From assembly GCA_964481135.1 (NCBI GenBank), contig CAYZSW010000006.1, forward strand, positions 1 through 63,642: 63,642 nt of DNA, written 5' to 3'. The DNA comes from an uncultured Candidatus Saccharibacteria bacterium. GTDB taxonomy: Bacteria > Patescibacteriota > UBA1384 > JAMDBS01 > DAOVQR01. A report on this DNA, generated by a model with database tools, continues below. The letters are not shown here.

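What the first reader, a model, noticed from the sequence alone, without database searches (positions are those of the whole stretch)
11857..12045. A complete tRNA-Thr(CGU) nested inside the D-arm of a second tRNA-Thr(CGU)-like gene, clamped by GC-rich complementary arms
On the minus strand, 12045->12023 reads GCCCACT-TA-GCTT-TAATGGTA-GA, and 11909->11857 reads GC-A-ATTCC-TTCGTAA-GGAAG-AGGTT-ATTGG-TTCAAAT-CCAAT-AGTGGGC-T-CCA. Joined, these make a 76-nt cloverleaf with a perfect 7-bp acceptor stem, a restored D stem (GCTT/GAGC), a canonical T loop and anticodon CGT. The 113 nt between the two pieces have three parts. The first is a 21-nt arm, CCTGCCCGCCAGTCGCTTAGC. The second is an intact 75-nt tRNA-Thr(CGU) (11927..12001). 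The third is a 17-nt arm, GGCGCTTGGCAGACGGG. The arms can pair (CTGCC/GGCAG, CCAG/TTGG, CGC/GCG), so the inner tRNA sits in the loop of a GC-rich hairpin planted in the outer D stem. The inner and outer genes share only about two thirds of their positions, so this is not a simple recent duplication. I see three readings. (a) It is an intron-like or split-tRNA arrangement. RNase P/Z release of the inner tRNA would leave two outer halves held together by the GC clamp, which recalls archaeal split tRNAs but is not something I know from bacteria. (b) A palindromic element carrying a replacement tRNA-Thr inserted into and killed the resident gene. T instead of the near-invariant A at outer position 14 argues for decay. 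(c) It is an assembly chimera. The arm sequence resembles the CCTGTCYGCC / GGCRGACRGG core of the GC islands at 33.2 and 56.9 kb and the junction of the tRNA-Asp repeats.
Basis: partly seen in the sequence, partly recalled or inferred. Interest (0 to 1): 0.9.

Follow-up and report, generated by a model that had tools for sequence, protein, structure and literature searches.

The report, continued
Noticed in passing
L026:822-898(-), L034:2006-2082(-), L035:958-1034(-): tRNA-Asp genes sit in the loop of a 17-24-bp leader/trailer hairpin that is followed directly by a T-run, so the tRNA appears enclosed in a terminator-like stem. The L034 and L035 arms differ by compensating changes. Across all fetched loci, 12 of 160 tRNAs have flank complementarity beyond the 1% null (1.6 expected).
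   Followed up: partly
L019:3136-3513, L021:3807-4157, L035:4309-4632: A small GIY-YIG ORF (PF01541) starts 3-5 nt after an intact tRNA-Thr(CGU). Its 3' end is encoded by a 5'-truncated second tRNA-Thr copy whose D loop holds a CCCCGCC...GGCGGGG hairpin. In L019 and L021 the relic has a second GC hairpin in the anticodon-stem/variable region.
   Followed up: partly
L043:4029-4268: Two tandem units of about 121 nt lie upstream of the intact tRNA-Thr gene. Each begins with a tRNA-Thr 5' fragment and includes the leader CTCGAYGT. This mirrors the tRNA-Asp 3'-end repeats in the window.
   Followed up: no
L098:199-274 versus L097:2547-2622: Two contigs encode the identical GT2 protein but differ at the tRNA. 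L098 has a hybrid tRNA-Thr, with the 5' part from another allele and the 3' part from the L097 allele. Its acceptor stem is broken, and ARAGORN does not call it.
   Followed up: no
Their GC motif GGCGGACAGG matches the CCTGYCYGCC pattern, but the unit is not significantly similar to the tRNA-Thr arms (z 0.3). L009 has TTCGGCGGGCAGGCAAGTT in an unrelated spacer (3785-3810).
   Followed up: partly
window 33222-33297 versus L092:2848-2926: GC island C lies in the M23-peptidase/ruvB spacer of the window. It is absent from the orthologous spacer of L092, which has only a plain terminator hairpin. The hairpin family is therefore insertion-polymorphic.
   Followed up: yes
L009:2673-2710, L098:166-198, L096:35-75: A recurrent trailer follows tRNA genes. 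The encoded CCA continues as CCACCC-TTCG...-GGGTGG-CAAGCC, so the 3' CCA would be paired in the precursor. Related GGGCAAGG/GGACAAGG motifs follow tRNA-Gly in L016, L027 and L041.
   Followed up: no
L021:3509-3528, L082:4697-4716: A perfect 20-nt palindrome, CCTGCCTGCC|GGCAGGCAGG, built from the same decamer as the window's GC islands. In L021 it lies 30 nt upstream of tRNA-Gly(CCC); only the L021 copy was read, and the L082 sequence is inferred from adjacent + and - strand matches to CCTGYCYGCC.
   Followed up: no
window, 31 long minus-strand ORFs: ACG is only 2.1 per 1000 codons (31 of 679 Thr codons), so demand for tRNA-Thr(CGU) is very low in this 29% G+C genome.
   Followed up: yes
L094:1, L095:1, L115:1, L116:1: Several short-read contigs of relatives begin inside the tRNA-Thr gene, three of them (L094, L095, L115) in its D arm (GTAGAGCA...). 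This probably reflects k-mers shared among tRNAs and not nesting. It does mean that this locus is systematically fragmented in assemblies.
   Followed up: no
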